This document shows positions 10,749 to 21,477 of a DNA stretch of 64,000 nt, piece by piece. The stretch comes from Escherichia phage vB-Eco-KMB37, in sequence record OR525700, one strand, 5' to 3'. The notes beneath the pieces were generated by a model. It had not been told where the DNA came from. It worked only from the letters and a program-made list of their open reading frames with translations, and did not search any database. The translations under genes and the position numbers were made by a program. Numbering within the stretch: the first letter of the stretch is position 1; every line of letters begins with the position of its first letter.

Positions 10749-11681
10749 TTAGCCTCCAAAGAAGTTTTCTATTTCTTTACGTCGCTCTTGTGGATCTAGA
10801 GCAGCCCATTGAACCTTCGTAAAGTTATTTCTAAGCCATTCTAGCAAAGTATAATATTCTTCGTCAACAATTTGTTTAGCATTATTTGGGTTGTCCCAAA
10901 TCATATCCCACTTCTTATTGCCACCACGCATAAGGAACTTCTTAGCAAGATAGTATGGTGACTTAATCTTTAAGAGTAAGTTAAACGGGTAGTTTGTTTC
11001 ACGAACAACAAAGCCTTCGTGTCTACAATGTTTAGACATTTCAACAACATCTGAAAATTTAATCATCGGATAAACTTCAGGACGTTTAAATTTTGTAATA
11101 GATGCAATCCCATCAAGAACACCTTCAGGTAACATGAAACTTGTCCCATCAAGATTTTGAATTCTTGCTCCAATTAAGTATGCGCCTGGTTCTTCTTCGA
11201 CAATATGTGGATCAGAAGGATCACAGATTTCAAAAAGGAAAGTTGCTTTTGCACTTTCTGTCCACTTAATGAAATACTCTATGTCATCACATTCGGAAAC
11301 AATACGGTTCTTGGCAATAGTTGCAAAGTCTGACTCTAGGCTCCCTGTTGTTGATACAACAAGTTGCCCTTTGTACACACCTACAGATGCCATAAAACCG
11401 TTTACTTTACGGACAGCATCTACAATTTCGTCTGCTGGAAGATCTGTACCATTTTCAAAACGATTAAAAATTTTAGTAAAAGGCCAAATAACAACATTGT
11501 CTTCTGAGTCAACAACCAACCCACGACAATCTAAAAGTCGTTTGTCAACGTTCCACAAGTTATCCCAGAATACATTGTTTTTGTATTTAAGTACAGCAAG
11601 ACCAGCATACTCTCCAGATTTAACTTCTTTTTTATGCACTAAACCTTTTGCAATCAGGTCATCACAATTGAACTTAGCCAC
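10749..11681 (-). CDS. Putative RNA ligase (covalent nucleotidyltransferase)
   Basis: Motif I RKVNGFMA (KxNG), motif IV-like EGFVVRE, motif V-like LLLKIKSPYY; distinct from the DNA ligase at 8488..9651. Confidence 0.5.
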   Translation of the reverse strand: MAKFNCDDLIAKGLVHKKEVKSGEYAGLAVLKYKNNVFWDNLWNVDKRLLDCRGLVVDSEDNVVIWPFTKIFNRFENGTDLPADEIVDAVRKVNGFMASVGVYKGQLVVSTTGSLESDFATIAKNRIVSECDDIEYFIKWTESAKATFLFEICDPSDPHIVEEEPGAYLIGARIQNLDGTSFMLPEGVLDGIASITKFKRPEVYPMIKFSDVVEMSKHCRHEGFVVRETNYPFNLLLKIKSPYYLAKKFLMRGGNKKWDMIWDNPNNAKQIVDEEYYTLLEWLRNNFTKVQWAALDPQERRKEIENFFGG

Positions 11682-15141: not shown

Positions 15142-16035
15142 ATGAAAGTTAGTATTCTACATGGTGTTGACTGTTATGTTACTGATGTAGACGTTAAAGT
15201 CTTTACATTCTCTGGTGGAGAACAACATGTTCAACTAGACACGAATCTATCAGGTTTCAATCATGCTACAGACAGAATCTTACTCTCTTTAGAAGTAAGA
15301 TCTGCTAAAGACTTGATGACTTTGGTTATGACTAAGAATGCATTGGACAATATGCTATATCATAAACCATATTGTGTTGATTTACTCATGTTGTATGTGC
15401 CGTATGCACGACAAGACAGAGTGTGTGAGCCTGGGGAAGCATTCGGAGTTAAAGCCTTTGCTTCTATAATTAATTCATTAAATTTCTCACGTGTTATCGT
15501 TGCTGATCCACATAGTGATGTTACTCCGGCAGTGTTTGACAGACTCTGTGTAATACCTCAAGAAGAGATTGCTTACGAAACTTTAAAGTGGAAGTTACGT
15601 ATGGAGAATTTTGCTCTTGTTAGTCCTGATGGTGGTGCTCTTAAGAAAATATTTAAATTATCTAAGAAAATGTCTTTAGATGTGTTCTGTGCAGAGAAGG
15701 TTAGAGATACTGCAACAGGTGCTATTGTTCGTACAGACATTTCTGTACAGGATTTCAATAAGCGTAACCTGATGATCGTAGATGATATCTGTGACGGCGG
15801 TAGAACTTTTATTGAATTGGCTAAAGTGCTACGTGCTCGTAACGCAGGTAAGATTGAGTTATATGTTACACACGGTATCTTTTCTAAAGGTCTTAAAGAG
15901 TTAAGTGAGCACTTTGACTGCATTCATTCTCTTAATGTGTGGGAAGATAACATCCAAGAAGATTCCGGTGTTCTTGTTAAGAATCAGTCAGATTTGCAAC
16001 AACAAATTGTATCTCCATACGTGTGGAATTTTTAA
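15142..16035 (+). CDS. Ribose-phosphate pyrophosphokinase homolog (Prs-like; possibly an ADP-ribose pyrophosphate synthetase of a NAD+ reconstitution pathway)
   Basis: YARQDR and PRPP-binding MIVDDICDGGRT motifs align with E. coli Prs (YARQDRR, VLVDDMIDTGGT). Confidence 0.8.
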   Translation: MKVSILHGVDCYVTDVDVKVFTFSGGEQHVQLDTNLSGFNHATDRILLSLEVRSAKDLMTLVMTKNALDNMLYHKPYCVDLLMLYVPYARQDRVCEPGEAFGVKAFASIINSLNFSRVIVADPHSDVTPAVFDRLCVIPQEEIAYETLKWKLRMENFALVSPDGGALKKIFKLSKKMSLDVFCAEKVRDTATGAIVRTDISVQDFNKRNLMIVDDICDGGRTFIELAKVLRARNAGKIELYVTHGIFSKGLKELSEHFDCIHSLNVWEDNIQEDSGVLVKNQSDLQQQIVSPYVWNF

Positions 16036-16045
16036 ATAATAAGTG

Positions 16046-16074
16046 TTGACAATAGGGAGTATGCTTAGTAAGAT
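16046..16074 (+). promoter_or_regulatory. Sigma70-like promoter
   Basis: TTGACA-N17-TAAGAT upstream of the NAMPT-like gene. Confidence 0.5.
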
Positions 16075-16106
16075 ACTCCCACACTAACAAACAAGGAGAC
16101 ATAACT

Positions 16107-17840
16107 ATGAATATTTTTGCACCTTTTGCTACTGATTGGTATAAACCTGGTCACAAGCAGATGTACAACCAAAATACAAAACTCATTTTCTCTAATTTAA
16201 CTCCTCGTAATGATAAAAACTTTGCACACTATGCAGATCGTGAAGCACGTGGTGTAATTGTTTTAGGTATTCGTCGAGCAGTTACTGATGCTCTTGTAAC
16301 TATGTGGGATAGCTTCTTTAAAATGTCTCGTAGTGCAGCAGTAAATAAATTTTATCGTATGTCTAAAAATGCATTAGGTGCTTCTGCTCCTTCTGCTGAA
16401 TGTTGGGGAGAATTGCACGATTTAGGTTATCTTCCGCTGGAAGTTCGATCTCTGCCAGAAGGTGTTTTGTGTCCTATTGGTGTTCCTGTGTTTACTGTGC
16501 ATAATACTTTAGAAAAATTCTTTTGGTTAACTAACTATGTGGAAACACTATTGTCAGATGAAACTTGGAAGACAATGACTAATGCTACAGCAGCTTTTCA
16601 GTATAAGCGTATTGCTATGGCATATGCGATGGCAACGTGTGATAATATTGATCATGTTAACTTCCAGTGTCATGATTTTAGCCTACGTGGTTTAAGTAAT
16701 ATCGAAGATGGTTATAAGAGTGGTATCGCTCATTTGGCATCTTTCACAGGAACAGATAACATTCTGGCTATTGAGACTGTGCATGATTATTATGGTATTG
16801 ATTATGATCAGTTTGTTGCAGGTTCTATTCCGGCAACAGAACATTCAGTAGCAACGACTAACATTGGAGCTATTGTTGAAGATCTGAAGAAACATTTCCC
16901 ACATCTTAAAGATGATGTTGATGGGCTTCGTTATGTAGCAGAGAAAGAGTTTCTTCGCCGCTATATTGAAGAAATTGTTCCAGAAGGTTTTTGTTCATAT
17001 GTAGCAGATTCTTATGACTACTGGGCTGTCTTGACTCGCATTCTGGTCGAGTTGAAAGATTCCATTATGTCACGAAATGGTCGTCTTGTTATTCGTCCAG
17101 ATTCAGGAGATCCGGTTAAAGTTGTTGCAGGATACAATGTTGAATCTTTTGATAACTATGAAGACCTTTTAAATAATGGTATTGCTACAGCCACTGAAGT
17201 AGTTCATTTGGCTGATGTTAATAAGTATTACAATGTTCTTCAGGATTGCAGTGTTGCTGATTGTATTGATGAAACTTATGAGATTCCTTATTGTGAAGCA
17301 GTAGGTTCTATTCAAATCCTTTGGGAAGTGTTTGGTGGTACTATCAACCGAAAAGGCTACAAGGTTCTTGATCAGCACATCGGTATGATTTATGGTGATT
17401 CTATTACTGTTGAACGAGAACACGAAATCTTACGCCGACTGAAGAAGAAAGGTTTTGCAGCTTCCAATATTGTATTTGGTGTTGGTAGTTATACTTATCA
17501 GTTCAATACACGAGATACTTTTGGTTTTGCTGTTAAAGCAACAGGTAGTATCATCGGTGAACACGAAATTTTGGTAAGTAAGGAGCCTAAAACTGATCCT
17601 GGTAAACGTTCTGCAAAAGGTTTTATTAAGGTTGTTAAGGATACAAACGGTAAAATTTCTCTCGTGGATAATCTTTCTTTTAAAGATATTCAAGATGAAG
17701 ACAATGAGTTAAAAGTTATCTTCAGGGATGGTACGGTTATTACACCACAAGTAGAAGGACGTGATGAAACATTTACGGATATCCGCAATCGTGTTGATGT
17801 AGAGGTTCTTCGTACTATGGGAACCATCCAGGTTGACTAA
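16107..17840 (+). CDS. Nicotinamide phosphoribosyltransferase family protein (NadV/NAMPT-like; possibly Namat)
   Basis: 577 aa; N-terminal DWYKPGHKQMY and overall NAMPT-like architecture; adjacent to the Prs-like gene. Confidence 0.8.
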   Translation: MNIFAPFATDWYKPGHKQMYNQNTKLIFSNLTPRNDKNFAHYADREARGVIVLGIRRAVTDALVTMWDSFFKMSRSAAVNKFYRMSKNALGASAPSAECWGELHDLGYLPLEVRSLPEGVLCPIGVPVFTVHNTLEKFFWLTNYVETLLSDETWKTMTNATAAFQYKRIAMAYAMATCDNIDHVNFQCHDFSLRGLSNIEDGYKSGIAHLASFTGTDNILAIETVHDYYGIDYDQFVAGSIPATEHSVATTNIGAIVEDLKKHFPHLKDDVDGLRYVAEKEFLRRYIEEIVPEGFCSYVADSYDYWAVLTRILVELKDSIMSRNGRLVIRPDSGDPVKVVAGYNVESFDNYEDLLNNGIATATEVVHLADVNKYYNVLQDCSVADCIDETYEIPYCEAVGSIQILWEVFGGTINRKGYKVLDQHIGMIYGDSITVEREHEILRRLKKKGFAASNIVFGVGSYTYQFNTRDTFGFAVKATGSIIGEHEILVSKEPKTDPGKRSAKGFIKVVKDTNGKISLVDNLSFKDIQDEDNELKVIFRDGTVITPQVEGRDETFTDIRNRVDVEVLRTMGTIQVD

Positions 17841-18587: not shown

Positions 18588-18663
18588 GGTTCCATAGCTC
18601 ACTGACGAAAGCGCACACCTCATAAGTGTCGAGGGCAGGGATTGTAACCCTGGGGAACCACCA
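18588..18663 (+). tRNA. tRNA-Met (anticodon CAT)
   Basis: 76 nt incl. CCA; acceptor GGTTCCA/GGGAACC, anticodon loop CTCATAA; T-loop atypical (ATTGTAA). Confidence 0.6.
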
Positions 18664-18694
18664 TTTAAAAGGAGGTGCTATGCATCTCCTATAT

Positions 18695-18780
18695 GCAAGT
18701 GTGGTGGAATTGGTGATACACATTGTGCTTAAAACGCAACGCTTAAATGATTGAGGGTTCGAATCCCTCCACTTGCACCA
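18695..18780 (+). tRNA. tRNA-Leu (anticodon TAA), type II
   Basis: Acceptor GCAAGTG/CACTTGC, loop CTTAAAA, long variable arm, T-arm GAGGG-TTCGAAT-CCCTC, CCA encoded. Confidence 0.7.
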
Positions 18781-18782
18781 AC

Positions 18783-18890
18783 GCCTAGTAGGGTATTTGG
18801 TAATTCCGAGGCCATCAAAGCCTGAAAAATATGTTAGACCGTTTTGTCTAACTAAATACGAAATATGGTTCGATTCCATAACTAGGCTCC
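18783..18890 (+). tRNA. Atypical tRNA-like element (about 107 nt)
   Basis: Perfect 7-bp acceptor pairing GCCTAGT/ACTAGGC and T-arm TATGG-TTCGATT-CCATA, but about 32 nt too long, with an extra 7-bp hairpin GTTAGAC/GTCTAAC; anticodon not resolved. Confidence 0.3.
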
Positions 18891-18923
18891 CGATTTAAAT
18901 AGTAATTTTTTAATAAAAATATC

Positions 18924-18952
18924 TTGACATTTACTTAGTTTTTTGTTATAGT
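18924..18952 (+). promoter_or_regulatory. Sigma70-like promoter
   Basis: TTGACA-N17-TATAGT. Confidence 0.55.
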
Positions 18953-18963
18953 CATTATGAAAA

Positions 18964-19045
18964 CGGGGTGTATCTCACCTGACTTCTAATCAGGCGTTAA
19001 CCGAGTAATTGGAGTATGCAGGTTCGAATCCTGTCACCCCGGCCA
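18964..19045 (+). tRNA. Atypical tRNA-like element (anticodon-like loop TCT, Arg-like)
   Basis: Perfect acceptor CGGGGTG/CACCCCG, stem-loop CCTGA-CTTCTAA-TCAGG, T-arm GCAGG-TTCGAAT-CCTGT, CCA; no canonical D-arm and a 24-nt insert before the T-arm. Confidence 0.35.
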
Positions 19046-19063
19046 AAAAGTTTTAAAAACTAC

Positions 19064-19092
19064 TTGACAAGCAAGATAGTTTTATGTTAGAT
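19064..19092 (+). promoter_or_regulatory. Sigma70-like promoter
   Basis: TTGACA-N17-TTAGAT. Confidence 0.5.
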
Positions 19093-19108
19093 TTAAAGTA
19101 TGGTAACA

Positions 19109-19198
19109 GGAAGGTAGGGCGCAGCGGTGCGCAACCAGGTTTGAACCCTGGCCCATTGTAGCGATACGGTGATGGTTCGACTCCATTATCTTCCTCCA
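19109..19198 (+). tRNA. tRNA-Ser (anticodon TGA), type II
   Basis: Acceptor GGAAGGT/ATCTTCC, anticodon arm CCAGG-TTTGAAC-CCTGG, long variable arm, CCA. Confidence 0.65.
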
Positions 19199-19216
19199 AA
19201 TTCGCTTAGGAGCTTT

Positions 19217-19369
19217 ATGAATTATAAAACTATTGGACAGGTTGTTACCGGAGTTAAGATTGTAGATAATAAAGTTGTTTATGAGTATTCTAATCTTCAA
19301 CAATCTGAAGATGGTAAAAATATTCGTATGGTAAAAGCAGAACAAAAAGATTCCGGTTGTTTTGAATAA
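19217..19369 (+). CDS. Hypothetical small protein (50 aa)
   Basis: AGGAG RBS then ATG at 19217; the longer track ORF would start inside the preceding tRNA. Confidence 0.35.
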   Translation: MNYKTIGQVVTGVKIVDNKVVYEYSNLQQSEDGKNIRMVKAEQKDSGCFE

Positions 19370-19377
19370 TTAATAAC

Positions 19378-19463
19378 GGTAGATTGGTGAAATGGTAGCC
19401 ACAACAGTTTGCTAAACTGTAGTCGGAAACGGCGTGTAGGTTCAAGTCCTACATCTACCGCCA
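19378..19463 (+). tRNA. tRNA-Ser (anticodon GCT), type II
   Basis: Acceptor GGTAGAT/ATCTACC, anticodon arm ACAGT-TTGCTAA-ACTGT, long variable arm, discriminator G, CCA. Confidence 0.7.
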
Positions 19464-19597
19464 AGTTATCTTTAATGTAGCTTGTAATCTTACTTTAATA
19501 GAGTAAATCTTCGGCAAGTGGCGGTAACCACTTTACCGATACCCTAATACTTCATAGTCAAGTGCCGCAAACACTGGCTATTTTAAAGATAATTTAT

Positions 19598-19673
19598 ACA
19601 TCGTTAGCTTAGTTGGTAGAGCAAGGGGCTTTTAACTCCAAGGTCGAAGGTTCGAATCCTTCACGATGTACCA
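19598..19673 (+). tRNA. tRNA-Lys (anticodon TTT)
   Basis: Acceptor ACATCGT/ACGATGT, loop CTTTTAA, T-arm GAAGG-TTCGAAT-CCTTC, CCA. Confidence 0.7.
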
Positions 19674-19678
19674 AACAC

Positions 19679-19765
19679 GTAGGTATCGCATAGCGGCAAT
19701 TGCTGGAGACTGTAAATCTCCTGCCCTTCGGGGCTTCGTTGGTTCGAGTCCAACTACCTGCACCA
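19679..19765 (+). tRNA. tRNA-Tyr (anticodon GTA), type II
   Basis: Anticodon arm GGAGA-CTGTAAA-TCTCC, long variable arm, T-arm GTTGG-TTCGAGT-CCAAC, CCA. Confidence 0.7.
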
Positions 19766-19772
19766 AATTAAA

Positions 19773-19857
19773 GATGGATTGGCCTAGTGGTTGGGCGACG
19801 GACTGTTAATCCGTGAACGAAAGTTCTAGCAAGGTTCAAATCCTTGATCCATCGCCA
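19773..19857 (+). tRNA. Type II (long-variable-arm) tRNA with Asn anticodon GTT
   Basis: Perfect acceptor GATGGAT/ATCCATC, 3-bp D-stem, anticodon arm ACGGA-CTGTTAA-TCCGT, 15-nt variable arm with GAAC-GAAA-GTTC hairpin, discriminator G, CCA. Confidence 0.6.
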
Positions 19858-19864
19858 GAATCAT

Positions 19865-19941
19865 GGACTTGTAGAGTTAAGGTAAACCCTCAGTCGCCAA
19901 GAGGCTTCTGGAATTGCAGGTATCGAATCCTGCCGAGTCCA
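19865..19941 (+). tRNA. Atypical tRNA-like element (anticodon unresolved)
   Basis: Acceptor GGACTTG/CGAGTCC pairs well; T-loop has 8 nt (TATCGAAT); no clean 5-bp/7-nt anticodon arm; no encoded CCA. Confidence 0.3.
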
Positions 19942-19947
19942 ATTATT

Positions 19948-20022
19948 GCTCCTATCGTATAACGGCTATTACGGTTGCCTTGTAAGCAACTTATCAGGGT
20001 TCGAGTCCTTGTGGGAGCACCA
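19948..20022 (+). tRNA. tRNA-Thr (anticodon TGT)
   Basis: Acceptor GCTCCTA/TGGGAGC, anticodon arm GTTGC-CTTGTAA-GCAAC, CCA. Confidence 0.7.
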
Positions 20023-20045
20023 ATTTTAACTCTAAAGGAGTGTAT

Positions 20046-20369
20046 GTGACAGAAAAAGAGTTAGAGAAATATTTTAATATCAATGTTTTCGATGGTTTTG
20101 ATGATATTGAAGATGTTGAAAGATATTATGAAGTAGAGTTAGATAAGGATAACATTGTAATTCTTTCTGCCACTTATGATTGTGCATATTATGAAGGTGA
20201 ATCTCACGTTTATTTTTATGATATGAAAACATCTTTGTTTTATGAAGTACACGCATATCATTGTTCTTGTTATGGTTTAGAAGGTCAGTGGGAACCTGAA
20301 GAAATAGGTGATTTGGACTTTACTATTGCATATCTAAACAGACGTGGTGCATCTACTATTTTAAAATAA
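20046..20369 (+). CDS. Hypothetical protein
   Basis: AAGGAG RBS; likely GTG start at 20046 (track start 20040 lies inside the RBS). Confidence 0.45.
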   Translation: MTEKELEKYFNINVFDGFDDIEDVERYYEVELDKDNIVILSATYDCAYYEGESHVYFYDMKTSLFYEVHAYHCSCYGLEGQWEPEEIGDLDFTIAYLNRRGASTILK

Positions 20370-20383
20370 ATATCAAAAGCCTC

Positions 20384-20413
20384 TTGACAAAGGGGCTAAT
20401 AATATGTTAGAGT
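20384..20413 (+). promoter_or_regulatory. Sigma70-like promoter
   Basis: TTGACA-N17-TAGAGT-like. Confidence 0.5.
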
Positions 20414-20424
20414 AATATTGTTAA

Positions 20425-20499
20425 GCGGGTATAGTGTTAATGGTAGCATATGAGGTTTCCACCCTCCAGGTGCAGGTTCAAGTCCTGTTACTCGCTCCA
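20425..20499 (+). tRNA. tRNA-Gly (anticodon TCC)
   Basis: Acceptor GCGGGTA/TACTCGC, loop TTTCCAC, T-arm GCAGG-TTCAAGT-CCTGT, CCA. Confidence 0.7.
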
Positions 20500-20517
20500 A
20501 GATTATTTAAATGGAAT

Positions 20518-20570
20518 CGCTAGAGAAAATTTCTCTTTTCGCTCATGGTTTTCTCCTTCAAACTCTAGCG
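20518..20570 (+). other. Structured spacer between tRNA-Gly and tRNA-Gln (nested inverted repeats)
   Basis: Outer 8-bp inverted repeat CGCTAGAG...CTCTAGCG enclosing hairpin GAGAAA/TTTCTC. Confidence 0.3.
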
Positions 20571-20598
20571 GTTCTTTTTAAGTGATTTTTAGTTTTAT

Positions 20599-20673
20599 TG
20601 GAGATTAGCCTAGTGGGAAGGCAACGGCCTTTGAAGTCGTGATGACTAGGTTCGATTCCTAGATCTCCAGCCA
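20599..20673 (+). tRNA. tRNA-Gln (anticodon TTG)
   Basis: Acceptor TGGAGAT/ATCTCCA, anticodon arm ACGGC-CTTTGAA-GTCGT, T-arm CTAGG-TTCGATT-CCTAG, CCA. Confidence 0.75.
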
Positions 20674-20680
20674 ATATTTA

Positions 20681-20756
20681 CAGTGCGTAGCGCAGTTGGT
20701 AGCGTGGGAGCTTTGGATGCTTCGGGTCGCAGGTTCGAGTCCTGCCGCACTGACCA
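20681..20756 (+). tRNA. tRNA-Pro (anticodon TGG)
   Basis: Acceptor CAGTGCG/CGCACTG, anticodon arm GGAGC-TTTGGAT-GCTTC, T-arm GCAGG-TTCGAGT-CCTGC, CCA. Confidence 0.75.
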
Positions 20757-20761
20757 AATTT

Positions 20762-20836
20762 GCAGAGATAGCTGAGACGGATTAGTGCTACCCTGAAAAG
20801 GTAGAAAGGATGGATCGTTACCATCTCTCTGCACCA
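20762..20836 (+). tRNA. tRNA-Phe (anticodon GAA)
   Basis: Acceptor GCAGAGA/TCTCTGC, anticodon arm CTACC-CTGAAAA-GGTAG, CCA. Confidence 0.7.
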
Positions 20837-20913
20837 AATAACACCATCCAAGGAGTAGACTTGGTTAACTGTCAATAGCACATTGAGGCTTCTTACAGTG
20901 GTGTACTTATTAT

Positions 20914-20998
20914 GGCTAAGTGGTGGAATGGTATACACGATACGCTTAGAACGTATTGCCCCAGTGGATTGTGAGTTCGAGTCTCACCTTAGCTACCA
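20914..20998 (+). tRNA. tRNA-Leu (anticodon TAG), type II
   Basis: Anticodon arm ATACG-CTTAGAA-CGTAT, long variable arm, T-arm GTGAG-TTCGAGT-CTCAC, CCA. Confidence 0.7.
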
Positions 20999-21085
20999 TA
21001 TCTAAGAGATATCATAGGGTTTGCAACGGATATCTACCGTCCTATTAAGGATACCACGCCAAGACGGGTTATAAAGGGTTAGCCA

Positions 21086-21161
21086 TTGATAGTGTGAAGC
21101 TGGCGTTTCGAGTGCTTTCATAAGGCATTGCGAGAAGAGTTCGATTCTCTTACTATCAACC
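21086..21161 (+). tRNA. tRNA with CAT anticodon (Met or Ile2)
   Basis: Acceptor TGATAGT/ACTATCA, loop TTCATAA with wobble-containing stem, T-arm AAGAG-TTCGATT-CTCTT, CCA. Confidence 0.55.
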
Positions 21162-21177
21162 AAATTACTACAGATTG

Positions 21178-21256
21178 CGCGGGATAGAGGAGTCTGGTCG
21201 TCCTCGCCAGTTTCATATGCTGGAGATCATCGGTTCGAATCCGATTTCCGCCTCCA
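21178..21256 (+). tRNA. tRNA with CAT anticodon (Met or Ile2), boundaries approximate
   Basis: D-stem AGGA/TCCT, loop TTCATAT, T-arm ATCGG-TTCGAAT-CCGAT; acceptor pairing imperfect. Confidence 0.5.
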
Positions 21257-21332
21257 ATAAATACCTCCCTTCTGGTGTAATGATTAAATTACATTGACAC
21301 TTCAAGGAACTCATAGCCGGGTAGATTTAAAA

Positions 21333-21397
21333 GAGTATGGTACTCAATATGGCTCCAAACCATAGATCAAGGGGTTCGATTCCTCACCTTGCTGCCA
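21333..21397 (+). tRNA. Possible tRNA-Trp (anticodon CCA), 5' boundary uncertain
   Basis: Anticodon arm TATGG-CTCCAAA-CCATA and T-loop TTCGATT plus CCA are clear; no acceptable 5' acceptor strand found with a normal D-arm. Confidence 0.3.
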
Positions 21398-21401
21398 ATA
21401 T

Positions 21402-21477
21402 TGTGGTATCGTACAGATGGTTAGTACACTCGACCGATAATCGAGAAACAACGGTTCGACTCCGTTTACCACGACCA
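21402..21477 (+). tRNA. tRNA-Ile (anticodon GAT)
   Basis: Acceptor TGTGGTA/TACCACG, D-stem GTAC/GTAC, anticodon arm CTCGA-CCGATAA-TCGAG, CCA. Confidence 0.7.

What the first reader, a model, noticed from the sequence alone, without database searches (positions are those of the whole stretch)
18964..19045. tRNA-like element lacking a D-arm, with an Arg-like (TCT) anticodon hairpin and 24-nt insert
Acceptor CGGGGTG/CACCCCG is a perfect 7-bp helix, the anticodon-like hairpin and T-arm are canonical and CCA is encoded, but only 5 nt separate position 9 from the anticodon stem and 24 nt sit before the T-arm. A second element (about 21333-21397, Trp-like) shows a similar compressed 5' half.
Basis: seen in the sequence. 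Interest (0 to 1): 0.5.

Follow-up and report, generated by a model that had tools for sequence, protein, structure and literature searches.

The report
Phage arginine tRNA with rewired D-arm
This is very probably a working arginine tRNA gene of a phi92-like coliphage whose D-stem is formed across the anticodon arm instead of beside it, one member of a large phage-only family of arginine and isoleucine tRNAs that gene finders and genome annotations almost always miss.

Summary
Window 18964-19045 has a 7-bp acceptor stem, a UCU anticodon hairpin, a canonical T-arm and an encoded CCA. There is no D-arm where one belongs, and 24 nt lie before the T-arm (Rfam tRNA 38.6 bits; ARAGORN misses it).

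It is not simply D-armless. In 124 distinct relatives, CTC (18974-76) always pairs with GAG (19003-05) across the anticodon arm, in 12 compensatory versions. The hairpin that energy folding predicts inside the insert does not covary.

The 12 nt after this helix (TAATTGGAGTAT) behave as a relocated D-loop. On the same scaffold, the base after GG is A in 26/26 members with Arg anticodons and T in 44/46 members with Ile or CAU anticodons, as the ArgRS (A20) and IleRS (U20) identity rules predict.

The family is abundant in viral and metagenome contigs. Only 4 hits turned up in 185,579 cellular genomes, all on MAG contigs. It is present but unannotated in FelixO1, PBECO4 and Mydo.

AGA supplies 27% of the phage's Arg codons, and the cluster holds no other tRNA-Arg.

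No description was found in the literature. Expression and charging are untested.

The parts
18924..18952 (+). sigma-70-type promoter-like site: TTGACA, 17-nt spacer, TG-TATAGT. It ends 12 nt before the tRNA 5' end.
   Evidence: 11 of 12 consensus matches, TG extension. It is a consensus match only; transcription is not shown.
18964..18970 (+). acceptor stem, 5' strand (CGGGGTG)
   Evidence: Pairs with 19035-19041. 99.5% of cells are paired across 54 sequences and all 7 pairs show double changes.
18971..18973 (+). connector U8-A9-U10 (TAT)
   Evidence: Invariant in alignment A1. TAT in 115 of 124 members, TAC in 8.
18974..18976 (+). 5' strand (CTC) of the long-range D-type helix
   Evidence: Pairs with 19003-19005. 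No unpaired cells in 54 sequences; 124/124 paired in 12 haplotypes; mutual-information ranks 7 and 12 of 3321.
18978..18994 (+). anticodon arm CCTGA-CTTCTAA-TCAGG; anticodon TCT at 18985-18987 (reads AGA, and AGG by wobble)
   Evidence: 95.6% of cells paired and all 5 pairs covary. U33, C35 and A37 are present in 124/124.
18995..19002 (+). 8-nt linker CGTTAACC forming the 3' side of an asymmetric internal loop (1 nt against 8 nt)
   Evidence: CGTTAA was fixed by the search pattern. In divergent members the linker is 3-8 nt with a different sequence.
19003..19005 (+). 3' strand (GAG) of the long-range D-type helix
   Evidence: As for 18974-18976.
19006..19017 (+). D-loop-equivalent segment TAATTGGAGTAT. 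GG (19011-12) is taken as G18/G19, A19013 as A20, and the final T (19017) as position 48.
   Evidence: The base after GG follows the anticodon's amino acid: A in 47/48 and 26/26 Arg-type members, T in 30/31 and 44/46 Ile-type members. The assignment to tertiary partners is inference.
19018..19034 (+). T-arm GCAGG-TTCGAAT-CCTGT
   Evidence: 99.3% of cells paired. The T-loop has the canonical TTCGAAT sequence.
19035..19045 (+). acceptor stem 3' strand CACCCCG, discriminator G (19042), encoded CCA (19043-45)
   Evidence: The discriminator is G or A in 118/124 and CCA is encoded in 95/124.

Best explanation
The element is a functional elongator tRNA-Arg(UCU) gene of a phi92-like coliphage (Justusliebigvirus) with a non-canonical core.

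The acceptor stem, T-arm and anticodon arm are standard. The D-stem is built differently. The three nucleotides after U8-A9-U10 (CTC) run straight into the anticodon stem and pair with three nucleotides (GAG) that lie 3' of the anticodon arm. The short helix that normally stacks on the anticodon stem is therefore made with swapped strand connectivity.

The D-loop (TAATTGGAGTAT, carrying G18 G19 A20) follows this helix and leads directly into the T-stem, taking the place of the variable loop.

Inferred mode of action:
- Transcription starts from its own promoter.
- RNase P and 3' trimming release an ~82-nt RNA ending in the encoded CCA.
- The GG docks on the T-loop to make the elbow.
- Host ArgRS charges the RNA, reading A20, C35, U36 and G73.
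- The tRNA decodes AGA (and AGG), which are frequent in the phage genes and rare in E. coli.

Shown here: the sequence anatomy, the long-range helix, the Arg/Ile-specific signature at the position-20 equivalent, the phage-only distribution and the codon usage. Inferred: transcription, processing, the three-dimensional fold, charging and decoding.
For: (1) The Rfam tRNA score is above the gathering threshold.

(2) Across 54 distinct relatives all three canonical helices covary (95.6-99.5% paired). The 11-42, 12-41 and 13-40 helix has no unpaired cell, with 19 and 11 double changes. The score collapses when the partners are slid by 1-3 columns.

(3) An unbiased mutual-information scan places 12-41 and 13-40 at ranks 7 and 12 of 3321 column pairs. 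Every other pair in the top 12 is a canonical stem pair.

(4) With metagenome sequences added there are 124 distinct members: the helix is paired in 124/124 in 12 haplotypes, and 123/124 anticodons are Arg (TCT 110, CCT 5, ACG 5, TCG 3). U33, C35, U/G36 and A37 are present in 124/124, and the discriminator is A or G in 118/124. This is the bacterial Arg identity set given in PMC9976931.

(5) On the same scaffold, with the anticodon left free in the search pattern, only Arg (TCT, ACG) and Ile/CAU (TAT, GAT, CAT) anticodons occur. The base after GG is A in 26/26 Arg members and T in 44/46 Ile/CAU members (Fisher p=1e-18). The discriminator is A in 46/46 of the Ile/CAU type (independently). This matches A20 for ArgRS and U20 plus A73 for IleRS.

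(6) One 37.5-kb contig carries three copies, with CCT, TCT and ACG anticodons, among 30 canonical tRNAs.

(7) The element sits inside tRNA clusters. In FelixO1, L026, L037, L051, L057, L074, L078 and L082 it supplies an Arg anticodon that the canonical tRNAs of the locus lack.

(8) In the window, AGA is 26.7% of Arg codons (10.3 per 1000), and neither ARAGORN nor the Rfam tRNA model finds any other tRNA-Arg in the 64-kb window.

(9) A promoter lies 12 nt upstream and CCA is encoded.

(10) The family is phage-specific: 72 viral contigs against 4 true hits, all on MAG contigs, in 185,579 cellular genomes.
Against: There are no expression, processing, aminoacylation or structure data.

Nearest-neighbour energies do not favour the 3-bp helix. 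In the window sequence the proposed fold is -21.4 kcal/mol against -26.3 for the MFE fold with a CCGA/TTGG hairpin. Over the family the helix costs about +1.2 kcal/mol, and RNAalifold does not predict it. The helix would therefore need tertiary stabilisation.

Many columns (CGTTAA, GGAGTATG, TAANTGG) were fixed by the search patterns, so their invariance is not independent evidence.

The mapping of individual nucleotides to U8-A14, A15-U48 and G18/G19-T-loop contacts is inference without covariation support.

Some phages carry the element next to canonical tRNA-Arg(UCU) genes (L044, L287), so it is not always the only AGA decoder.

About 1 in 10 members (6 of 58) lacks CCA and has a 12-15 bp leader-trailer extension of unclear meaning.
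Confidence: 0.8

Rival explanations
1. It is the same RNA, but the rewired core exists mainly as a counter-defence device. Changing the D-stem/anticodon-stem junction and the variable region would let the phage keep a chargeable Arg (and Ile) tRNA that host tRNA-cleaving immune nucleases cannot recognise or cut. This adds a selective reason to the best explanation rather than replacing it.
For: Phage tRNAs are known to rescue infection from tRNA-targeting defences (PARIS, PMC11464382; Retron-Eco7 and Septu, PMC12673091 and PMC13096335; anticodon-loop escape, PMC10264068; all listed). P2-OLD removes the anticodon arm of several E. coli tRNAs, Arg among them, by cutting on both sides of the arm (PMC12445682). 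Those are the junctions that are rebuilt here. The scaffold is confined to phages, is kept alongside canonical tRNA-Arg(UCU) in some genomes, and the window also encodes an Rnl1-type RNA ligase.
Against: No nuclease known to target tRNA-Arg(UCU) or tRNA-Ile through the D-arm was identified. The anticodon loop is the ordinary CUUCUAA. Nothing here tests resistance. Codon supply alone explains the gene's presence in the window.
Confidence: 0.25
2. It is a truly D-armless tRNA. The 5' connector would be unpaired, and the 24-nt insert would be either a type-II-like variable-arm hairpin (CCGA-GTAA-TTGG, 19001-19012) or unstructured.
For: The MFE and centroid folds of the window sequence contain exactly this hairpin, and it is 4.9 kcal/mol more stable than the proposed fold.
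Against: The hairpin shows no compensatory change and is broken in 28/54 sequences at pair 41-46 and in 16/54 at pair 39-48. Its nucleotides 40-41 covary instead with 12-13. Divergent members lack the hairpin sequence altogether.
Confidence: 0.07
3. It is a tRNA-like RNA that does not act in translation. It could be a decoy or sponge for a tRNA-binding host protein, a primer, or a processing or termination signal in the tRNA operon.
For: 6 of 58 members lack CCA and sit on a 19-22 bp stem made with leader and trailer, which looks more like a processing stalk than a normal pre-tRNA. One such copy lies next to a canonical tRNA-Arg(UCU) (L044).
Against: A decoy has no need to keep the anticodon within one amino acid's codon set, to couple it to the position-20 base and the discriminator in the way ArgRS and IleRS require, or to keep U33, A37 and a 7/5 acceptor-T stack. 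No Rfam family other than tRNA matches.
Confidence: 0.06
4. It is a decaying tRNA pseudogene left by a deletion of the D-arm and an insertion in the variable region.
For: Most annotations ignore it and ARAGORN rejects it. One interrupted copy and one truncated copy exist (L083/L327 and L497).
Against: The architecture is conserved with compensatory substitutions across Justusliebigvirus, Felixounavirus, Kolesnikvirus, Asteriusvirus, Mydovirus, Streptomyces phages and hundreds of environmental contigs.
Confidence: 0.02

Closest known systems
Canonical bacterial and phage tRNA-Arg(UCU), e.g. the tRNA-Arg of T5-like phages (Rfam RF00005)
   Same: Same acceptor and T-arm sequences: 31 of 32 nt identical to the T5-like tRNA-Arg 3' part. 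Same CUUCUAA anticodon loop, G73, encoded CCA, location in a phage tRNA cluster, and a GG-A motif of the D-loop type.
   Different: There is no D-arm between position 9 and the anticodon stem. The D-stem 3' strand and the D-loop lie after the anticodon arm. The variable loop is replaced by that segment. Standard gene finders fail on it or call it 'Undet'.
D-armless metazoan mitochondrial tRNA-Ser(AGY/GCU)
   Same: No D-arm in the usual place. [quoted passage not shown]
   Different: The mitochondrial tRNA has lost the tertiary core and the canonical T-loop, and needs a co-evolved SerRS. The phage tRNA keeps a canonical TTCGAAT T-loop and a 12-nt GG-containing D-loop equivalent. Its extra helix is separated from the anticodon stem by a 1x8-nt internal loop. 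It appears to use the host's ordinary ArgRS identity set, and it is viral, not organellar.
Type II tRNAs (Leu, Ser, Tyr) and phage tRNAs with long variable arms
   Same: Total length is similar (82 nt), and there are more than 20 nt between the anticodon arm and the T-arm.
   Different: Type II tRNAs have a normal D-arm and a covarying variable-arm hairpin. Here the candidate hairpin does not covary and the D-arm is missing at its usual site.
Other non-canonical cloverleaves: 8/4 and 9/3 allo-tRNAs, tRNA-Sec, tRNA-Pyl (PMC5389517, PMC7609411)
   Same: They are naturally occurring functional tRNAs that depart from the standard cloverleaf, some of them in phages.
   Different: Those vary in helix lengths but keep the order acceptor, D, anticodon, variable, T. 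Here the order of the strands is changed. The 2020 review of non-canonical tRNAs mentions no phage case.

Membership tests
tRNA (Rfam RF00005) | Score at or above the family's gathering threshold | tested here: met
   38.6 bits against 29.
tRNA (Rfam RF00005) | 7-bp acceptor stem, discriminator base, 3' CCA | tested here: met
   18964-70 pairs with 19035-41, then G19042 and CCA 19043-45. 99.5% of cells paired in the family.
tRNA (Rfam RF00005) | 5-bp anticodon stem and 7-nt loop with U33 and a purine at 37 | tested here: met
   U33 and A37 are present in 124/124.
tRNA (Rfam RF00005) | 5-bp T-stem with a T-Psi-C-type loop | tested here: met
   GCAGG-TTCGAAT-CCTGT. 99.3% of cells paired.
tRNA (Rfam RF00005) | D-arm (stem 10-13/22-25 and loop) between position 9 and the anticodon stem | tested here: not met
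   Only 7 nt separate the acceptor and anticodon stems. The Rfam alignment deletes 15 model positions and ARAGORN makes no call. An equivalent helix is formed with a strand 3' of the anticodon arm.
tRNA (Rfam RF00005) | Aminoacylation and use on the ribosome | not testable with these tools
   This needs charging assays, tRNA-seq or decoding reporters.
Bacterial tRNA-Arg (ArgRS identity set: A20, C35, U/G36, A/G73; PMC9976931) | C35, U or G at 36, and A or G at 73 | tested here: met
   The window has C18986, T18987 and G19042. In the family, C35 is present in 124/124, U/G36 in 124/124 and A/G73 in 118/124.
Bacterial tRNA-Arg (ArgRS identity set) | A20 in the D-loop | tested here: inconclusive
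   There is no canonical D-loop. The base after GG (A19013) is A in 47/48 and 26/26 Arg-type members and T in Ile-type members, as expected if it is position 20. The spatial equivalence is not shown.
D-armless mitochondrial tRNA-Ser(AGY) | 5' connector paired with the region 3' of the anticodon stem (extended anticodon stem) | tested here: met
   The 3-bp covarying helix 18974-76 / 19003-05. It is separated from the anticodon stem by a 1x8-nt internal loop.
D-armless mitochondrial tRNA-Ser(AGY) | Loss of the D-loop/T-loop tertiary core and of the canonical T-loop | tested here: not met
   The canonical TTCGAAT T-loop and a conserved GG-containing segment are retained.
Type II (long variable arm) tRNA | Base-paired variable arm supported by covariation, plus a normal D-arm | tested here: not met
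   The 38-41/46-49 hairpin has one double change among 54 sequences (pair 41-46) and only 70.8% of cells paired. There is no D-arm at the normal site.

The most novel reading that the evidence does not exclude
This would be a previously undescribed structural class of elongator tRNA, the first outside organelles without a conventionally placed D-arm. The D-stem strands are swapped and the D-loop is moved to the variable-loop position, yet the RNA still folds into an L-shape and is charged by the host's ordinary ArgRS (and, in sister members, IleRS). The class is confined to phages, spans phages of enterobacteria and Streptomyces and contigs from many metagenomes, and may have evolved so that phage Arg and Ile decoders escape host tRNA-cleaving defences.
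Probability: 0.5. Interest if true: 0.88.

Novelty: new variant of a known kind. Interest (0 to 1): 0.78.

Why it matters
The cloverleaf order of strands is treated as universal outside animal mitochondria. A large, conserved family that keeps every functional module but connects them differently would show that the tRNA core tolerates a topological rewiring while still serving standard synthetases, RNase P, EF-Tu and the ribosome.

On the practical side, the gene is missing from the annotation of well-studied phages (FelixO1, phi92 relatives, PBECO4, Mydo). Phage tRNA repertoires, codon-compensation analyses and screens of phage tRNAs against tRNA-targeting defence systems therefore systematically omit an AGA decoder, and elsewhere an AUA decoder.

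The scaffold could also interest people who design orthogonal or nuclease-resistant tRNAs.

All the key claims can be tested directly with transcripts, E. coli ArgRS and phi92 or FelixO1 infections.

Tried and rejected
1. Re-permutation test. I moved the D-stem 3' strand and the D-loop-like segment back to the canonical place in silico and asked ARAGORN to recognise the result. It recognised 52-54 of 54, but also about 77% of controls with the segment shuffled. The test is uninformative.

2. Energy-based support. Neither single-sequence MFE and centroid folds, RNAalifold nor nearest-neighbour energies predict or favour the 3-bp helix. Its support is comparative only.

3. Model R1 was built with a mistyped structure string, with the anticodon stem one column out of register. 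It was discarded and R2 was used.

They were useful only after filtering with the covariance model or a structural descriptor.

5. A conventional cloverleaf using another 5' strand was rejected for element 1, because a promoter lies upstream and the 5' strand covaries. It was accepted for element 2.

6. A variable-arm hairpin was rejected.

7. A pseudogene was rejected on conservation.

8. YrlA, tmRNA-like or any other Rfam family: no match, even at E up to 10.

9. Nine full-text literature searches and two reviews turned up no description of such a phage tRNA. The library lacks most subscription-journal papers, so prior description cannot be excluded.

10. Multiple alignment of the eight Trp-type elements was mis-registered by MAFFT, so the pairs were counted with a script instead.

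Full report
**Setting.** The window is 97-98% identical to phi92-like Escherichia myophages (Justusliebigvirus, Stephanstirmvirinae). Positions 18588-21477 on the + strand are the phage's tRNA cluster. ARAGORN finds 15 tRNAs there and Rfam finds 14. The cluster lies between NAD-salvage genes (a PRPP-synthetase-like gene and a NAPRTase/NadV gene) and the terminase and portal genes.

**The observation.** It is correct to the base. The parts are:
- acceptor stem CGGGGTG / CACCCCG
- connector TATCTCA
- anticodon hairpin CCTGA-CTTCTAA-TCAGG, with anticodon TCT, U33 and A37
- 24 nt, CGTTAACCGAGTAATTGGAGTATG
- T-arm GCAGG-TTCGAAT-CCTGT
- discriminator G73 and an encoded CCA

The Rfam tRNA model scores the element 38.6 bits (gathering score 29). 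It reaches that score only by deleting 15 D-arm positions and inserting 20 nt before the T-arm. ARAGORN does not call it. One relative (phage PATM) annotates it as 'tRNA-Undet'. In 23 of 23 sampled phage records that hold a homologue, nothing, a hypothetical protein or an HNH gene is annotated over it.

**Relatives.** BLAST finds the whole 82-nt element at 82-86% identity in:
- FelixO1 and other Felixounavirus phages
- Erwinia phage Ep030 (Kolesnikvirus)
- the jumbo phage PBECO4
- Proteus phage Mydo and Klebsiella relatives
- phage FH3
- Streptomyces phage Stanimal

T5-like phages share only the 3' part, inside a normal tRNA-Arg.

A pattern of the conserved insert that leaves the anticodon free retrieved very different numbers from the three collections:
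- 72 viral contigs
- 12 hits in one genome per species for 185,579 bacteria and archaea; only 4 of these are real, and all 4 lie on MAG contigs

The element is therefore a phage feature.

**The key structural result.** The first homologues showed that CTC (18974-76) changes together with GAG (19003-05): CTTC/GAAG in FH3 and CGC/GCG in Stanimal. On 54 distinct sequences (alignment A1):
- The canonical helices are 95.6-99.5% paired, and 16 of their 17 pairs show double changes (the outer T-stem pair 55-71 only alternates G-C with G-U).
- Pair 11-42 is C-G in all 54.
- Pair 12-41 is U-A in 35, G-C in 10 and A-U in 9.
- Pair 13-40 is C-G in 43, G-C in 6 and U-A in 5.
- Not one cell of these three pairs is unpaired.
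- Sliding the 3' partners by 1-3 columns drops the paired fraction from 94.8% to 33-47%.

A blind mutual-information scan with APC correction over all 3321 column pairs ranks 12-41 seventh and 13-40 twelfth. Everything else in the top twelve is a canonical stem pair.

With the metagenome sequences there are 124 distinct members. The helix is paired in 124/124, in 12 different versions.

The alternative CCGA-GTAA-TTGG hairpin, which is what MFE folding predicts for the window sequence, has almost no compensatory change (one double change in 54 sequences, at pair 41-46). It is broken in 28/54 sequences at that pair.

A caveat belongs here. Thermodynamic models do not favour the 3-bp helix (-21.4 against -26.3 kcal/mol in the window; about +1.2 kcal/mol on average), and RNAalifold omits it. 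The evidence for it is purely comparative.

**What the rest of the insert is.** After the helix comes TAATTGGAGTAT, and then the T-stem. This reads like a D-loop (A14 A15 .. G18 G19 A20 .. A21) followed by U48, though that reading alone is only a resemblance. The test came from sister members.

- The covariance model R2 found, in a locus fetched for an Arg copy, a member with anticodon TAT (Ile) and GGTT instead of GGAG.
- A pattern that fixes the Ile anticodon but leaves the base after GG free gave 31 distinct members. The helix is paired in 30/31 (10 X/Y combinations, 9 of them fully paired; the first pair also varies here). The discriminator is A in 31/31 and the base after GG is T in 30/31.
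- A pattern for the Arg type that leaves the same base free gave A in 47/48. Fisher p is 1.7e-19.
  - Their anticodons are TAT 28, GAT 10, CAT 8, TCT 16 and ACG 10, which means Ile/CAU and Arg only.
  - The base after GG is A in 26/26 Arg members and T in 44/46 Ile/CAU members (p=1e-18).
  - The discriminator is A in 46/46 of the Ile/CAU members and G or A in the Arg members.
  - The helix is paired in 71/72.

Bacterial identity sets are A20, C35, U/G36 and A/G73 for Arg, and U20, U21 and A73 (among others) for Ile (PMC9976931 Table 1). So the nucleotide after GG behaves as position 20. These RNAs are under the selection expected of substrates of ArgRS and IleRS.

In the 124 Arg-type sequences, U33, C35, U/G36 and A37 are invariant and the discriminator is A or G in 95% (the printed position labels in that output are shifted by one).

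**Model.** The order of the strands is:

acceptor 5' strand, U8 A9 U10, [helix strand], N, anticodon arm, linker of 3-8 nt, [helix strand], D-loop equivalent, T-arm, acceptor 3' strand.

The short helix can stack on the anticodon stem as the D-stem does, but with the connectivity of its two strands exchanged. The strand that continues into the anticodon stem comes directly from position 10. The strand that would normally follow position 9 now follows the anticodon arm and leads into the D-loop. From there the chain enters the T-stem, where the variable loop normally would. Formally, the segment 'D-stem 5' strand plus D-loop' has moved from before the anticodon arm to after it. This geometric reading, and the U8-A14, A15-U48 and G18/G19-T-loop contacts it implies, are inference.

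**Function in this phage.**
- AGA makes up 26.7% of Arg codons (10.3 per 1000) in 42 long ORFs of the window. By general knowledge it is among the rarest codons in E. coli.
- The cluster has no other tRNA-Arg.
- FelixO1 has a canonical tRNA-Arg(ACG) plus this element as its only UCU decoder.
- In eight informative loci the element supplies an Arg anticodon that is absent from the locus's canonical set. Two loci (L044, L287) are redundant for UCU.
- One contig carries three copies, with CCU, UCU and ACG anticodons.
- A strong promoter-like site (TTGACA, 17-nt spacer, TG-TATAGT) ends 12 nt upstream, and the next one follows the CCA.

**Why rewired?** This is unknown. tRNA-cleaving defence systems and phage tRNAs that escape them are now well documented. 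P2-OLD cuts on both sides of the anticodon arm of several tRNAs, including Arg, and the window encodes an Rnl1-type RNA ligase. Escape from such nucleases is an attractive hypothesis, but it is untested here.

**Comparison with known things.**
[quoted passage not shown] That tRNA has lost the tertiary core, whereas the phage tRNA keeps a canonical T-loop and a D-loop equivalent.
- Known non-canonical bacterial and phage tRNAs (8/4 and 9/3 allo-tRNAs, tRNA-Sec, tRNA-Pyl) keep the canonical order of arms.
- No Rfam family other than tRNA matches.
- Nine literature searches found no description. The library is incomplete, so this is absence of evidence only.

**The second element.** Comparison with phages FKP3, SarahDanielle, LPML1, POP15, CR9, F1M1E and Ro1 shows the following:
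- The acceptor 5' strand is AGCCGGG (21315-21), and it covaries with CCTTGCT (21387-93).
- It is followed by an 11-nt connector.
- Next is a covarying D hairpin, GAGTA-TGG-TACTC (21333-45); in relatives it is GAGTT/AACTC, GGGT/ACCC or TTGCT/AGCAA.
- Then come a CCA anticodon arm, a 5-nt variable loop and a T-arm.

It is a second unannotated, non-canonical tRNA of a different kind. It has an expanded 8-9 connector and a tiny D-loop, and it is not D-armless.

**Limits.**
- Several invariant columns were imposed by the patterns.
- Sequences are not phylogenetically independent. The 12 or more helix versions and the two amino-acid classes argue for many independent events.
- Nothing is known about expression.

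Noticed in passing
window 21315-21397 (+): An unannotated tRNA-Trp(CCA)-like gene. It has an 11-nt connector between the acceptor and D stems, a 5-bp D hairpin with a 3-nt TGG loop, a C-U mismatch in the acceptor stem (pair 4-69) next to a G-U wobble (5-68), and an A-A mismatch at 49-65. It is conserved with compensatory changes in Justusliebigvirus, some Ounavirinae, Certrevirus and Mydovirus phages. Rfam scores it below threshold (22.9 bits) and with the wrong 5' strand.
   Followed up: partly
window 18783-18888 (+): A ~106-nt tRNA-like element with anticodon loop CAUCAAA (TCA, opal-reading, with A rather than U at position 33), a ~38-nt variable arm containing the hairpin GTTAGAC/GTCTAAC, and no encoded CCA. 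Its 70%-identical homologue in Erwinia phage Hena1 is annotated tRNA-sup(tca). It is absent from phage Paula and is called by neither ARAGORN nor Rfam here.
   Followed up: partly
window 18588-18663 (+): A tRNA-Met(CAT)-like gene, annotated as tRNA-Met in phages Paula and PATM. Its T-loop is ATTGTAA instead of TTCRANN, and its D-loop has no GG, so both partners of the elbow contact are missing. In the window it also carries a G-to-A change in the D-stem, and neither ARAGORN nor the Rfam tRNA model detects it.
   Followed up: no
loci L015 5506-5585, L431, L464-L496, L519-L600 (viral contigs): A sister family on the same rewired scaffold with Ile anticodons (TAT, GAT) and CAT. It has linker AGAAA, GGT instead of GGA, discriminator A, and a U-U or U-C mismatch at the first anticodon-stem pair. 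It is almost absent from cultured phage records: the only hit is unannotated, in crAss-like phage cr130_1.
   Followed up: partly
loci L009, L012, L014, L026, L033, L044: Six of 58 distinct Arg-type members lack an encoded CCA. Their acceptor stem is extended by 12-15 further leader-trailer base pairs, giving a 19-22 bp helix that is often followed by a T-run. This could be an RNase III-type processing stalk or a terminator. The L044 copy sits next to a canonical tRNA-Arg(TCT).
   Followed up: partly
L083 1458-1530 and L327 6452-6530: Two contigs hold the same Arg-type copy interrupted inside the T-arm (…GGAGTATGGGAGT|GTGATTGACATATTGTTCACGGG…). This may be an insertion, such as an intron or a homing-endonuclease cassette, or a shared truncation.
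   Followed up: no
window 10749-11681 (-) and 15142-17840 (+): An Rnl1-type (T4 RNA ligase 1 family) ORF, which is the enzyme class that repairs anticodon-nuclease damage, and next to the tRNA cluster a PRPP-synthetase-like ORF and a NAPRTase/NadV ORF.
   Followed up: no
window 19773-19857; loci L038, L057, L061, L026, L082: Phage tRNAs for Asn, Ile(TAT), Lys, Gln and Trp that have a normal D-arm plus a long, type-II-like variable arm (85-96 nt), although these amino acids normally use short variable loops.
   Followed up: no
window 18924-18952, 19064-19093, 20384-20413 (+): Near-consensus sigma-70 promoters (TTGACA with an extended -10) directly precede individual tRNA genes inside the cluster. 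This suggests several short transcription units rather than one operon.
   Followed up: no
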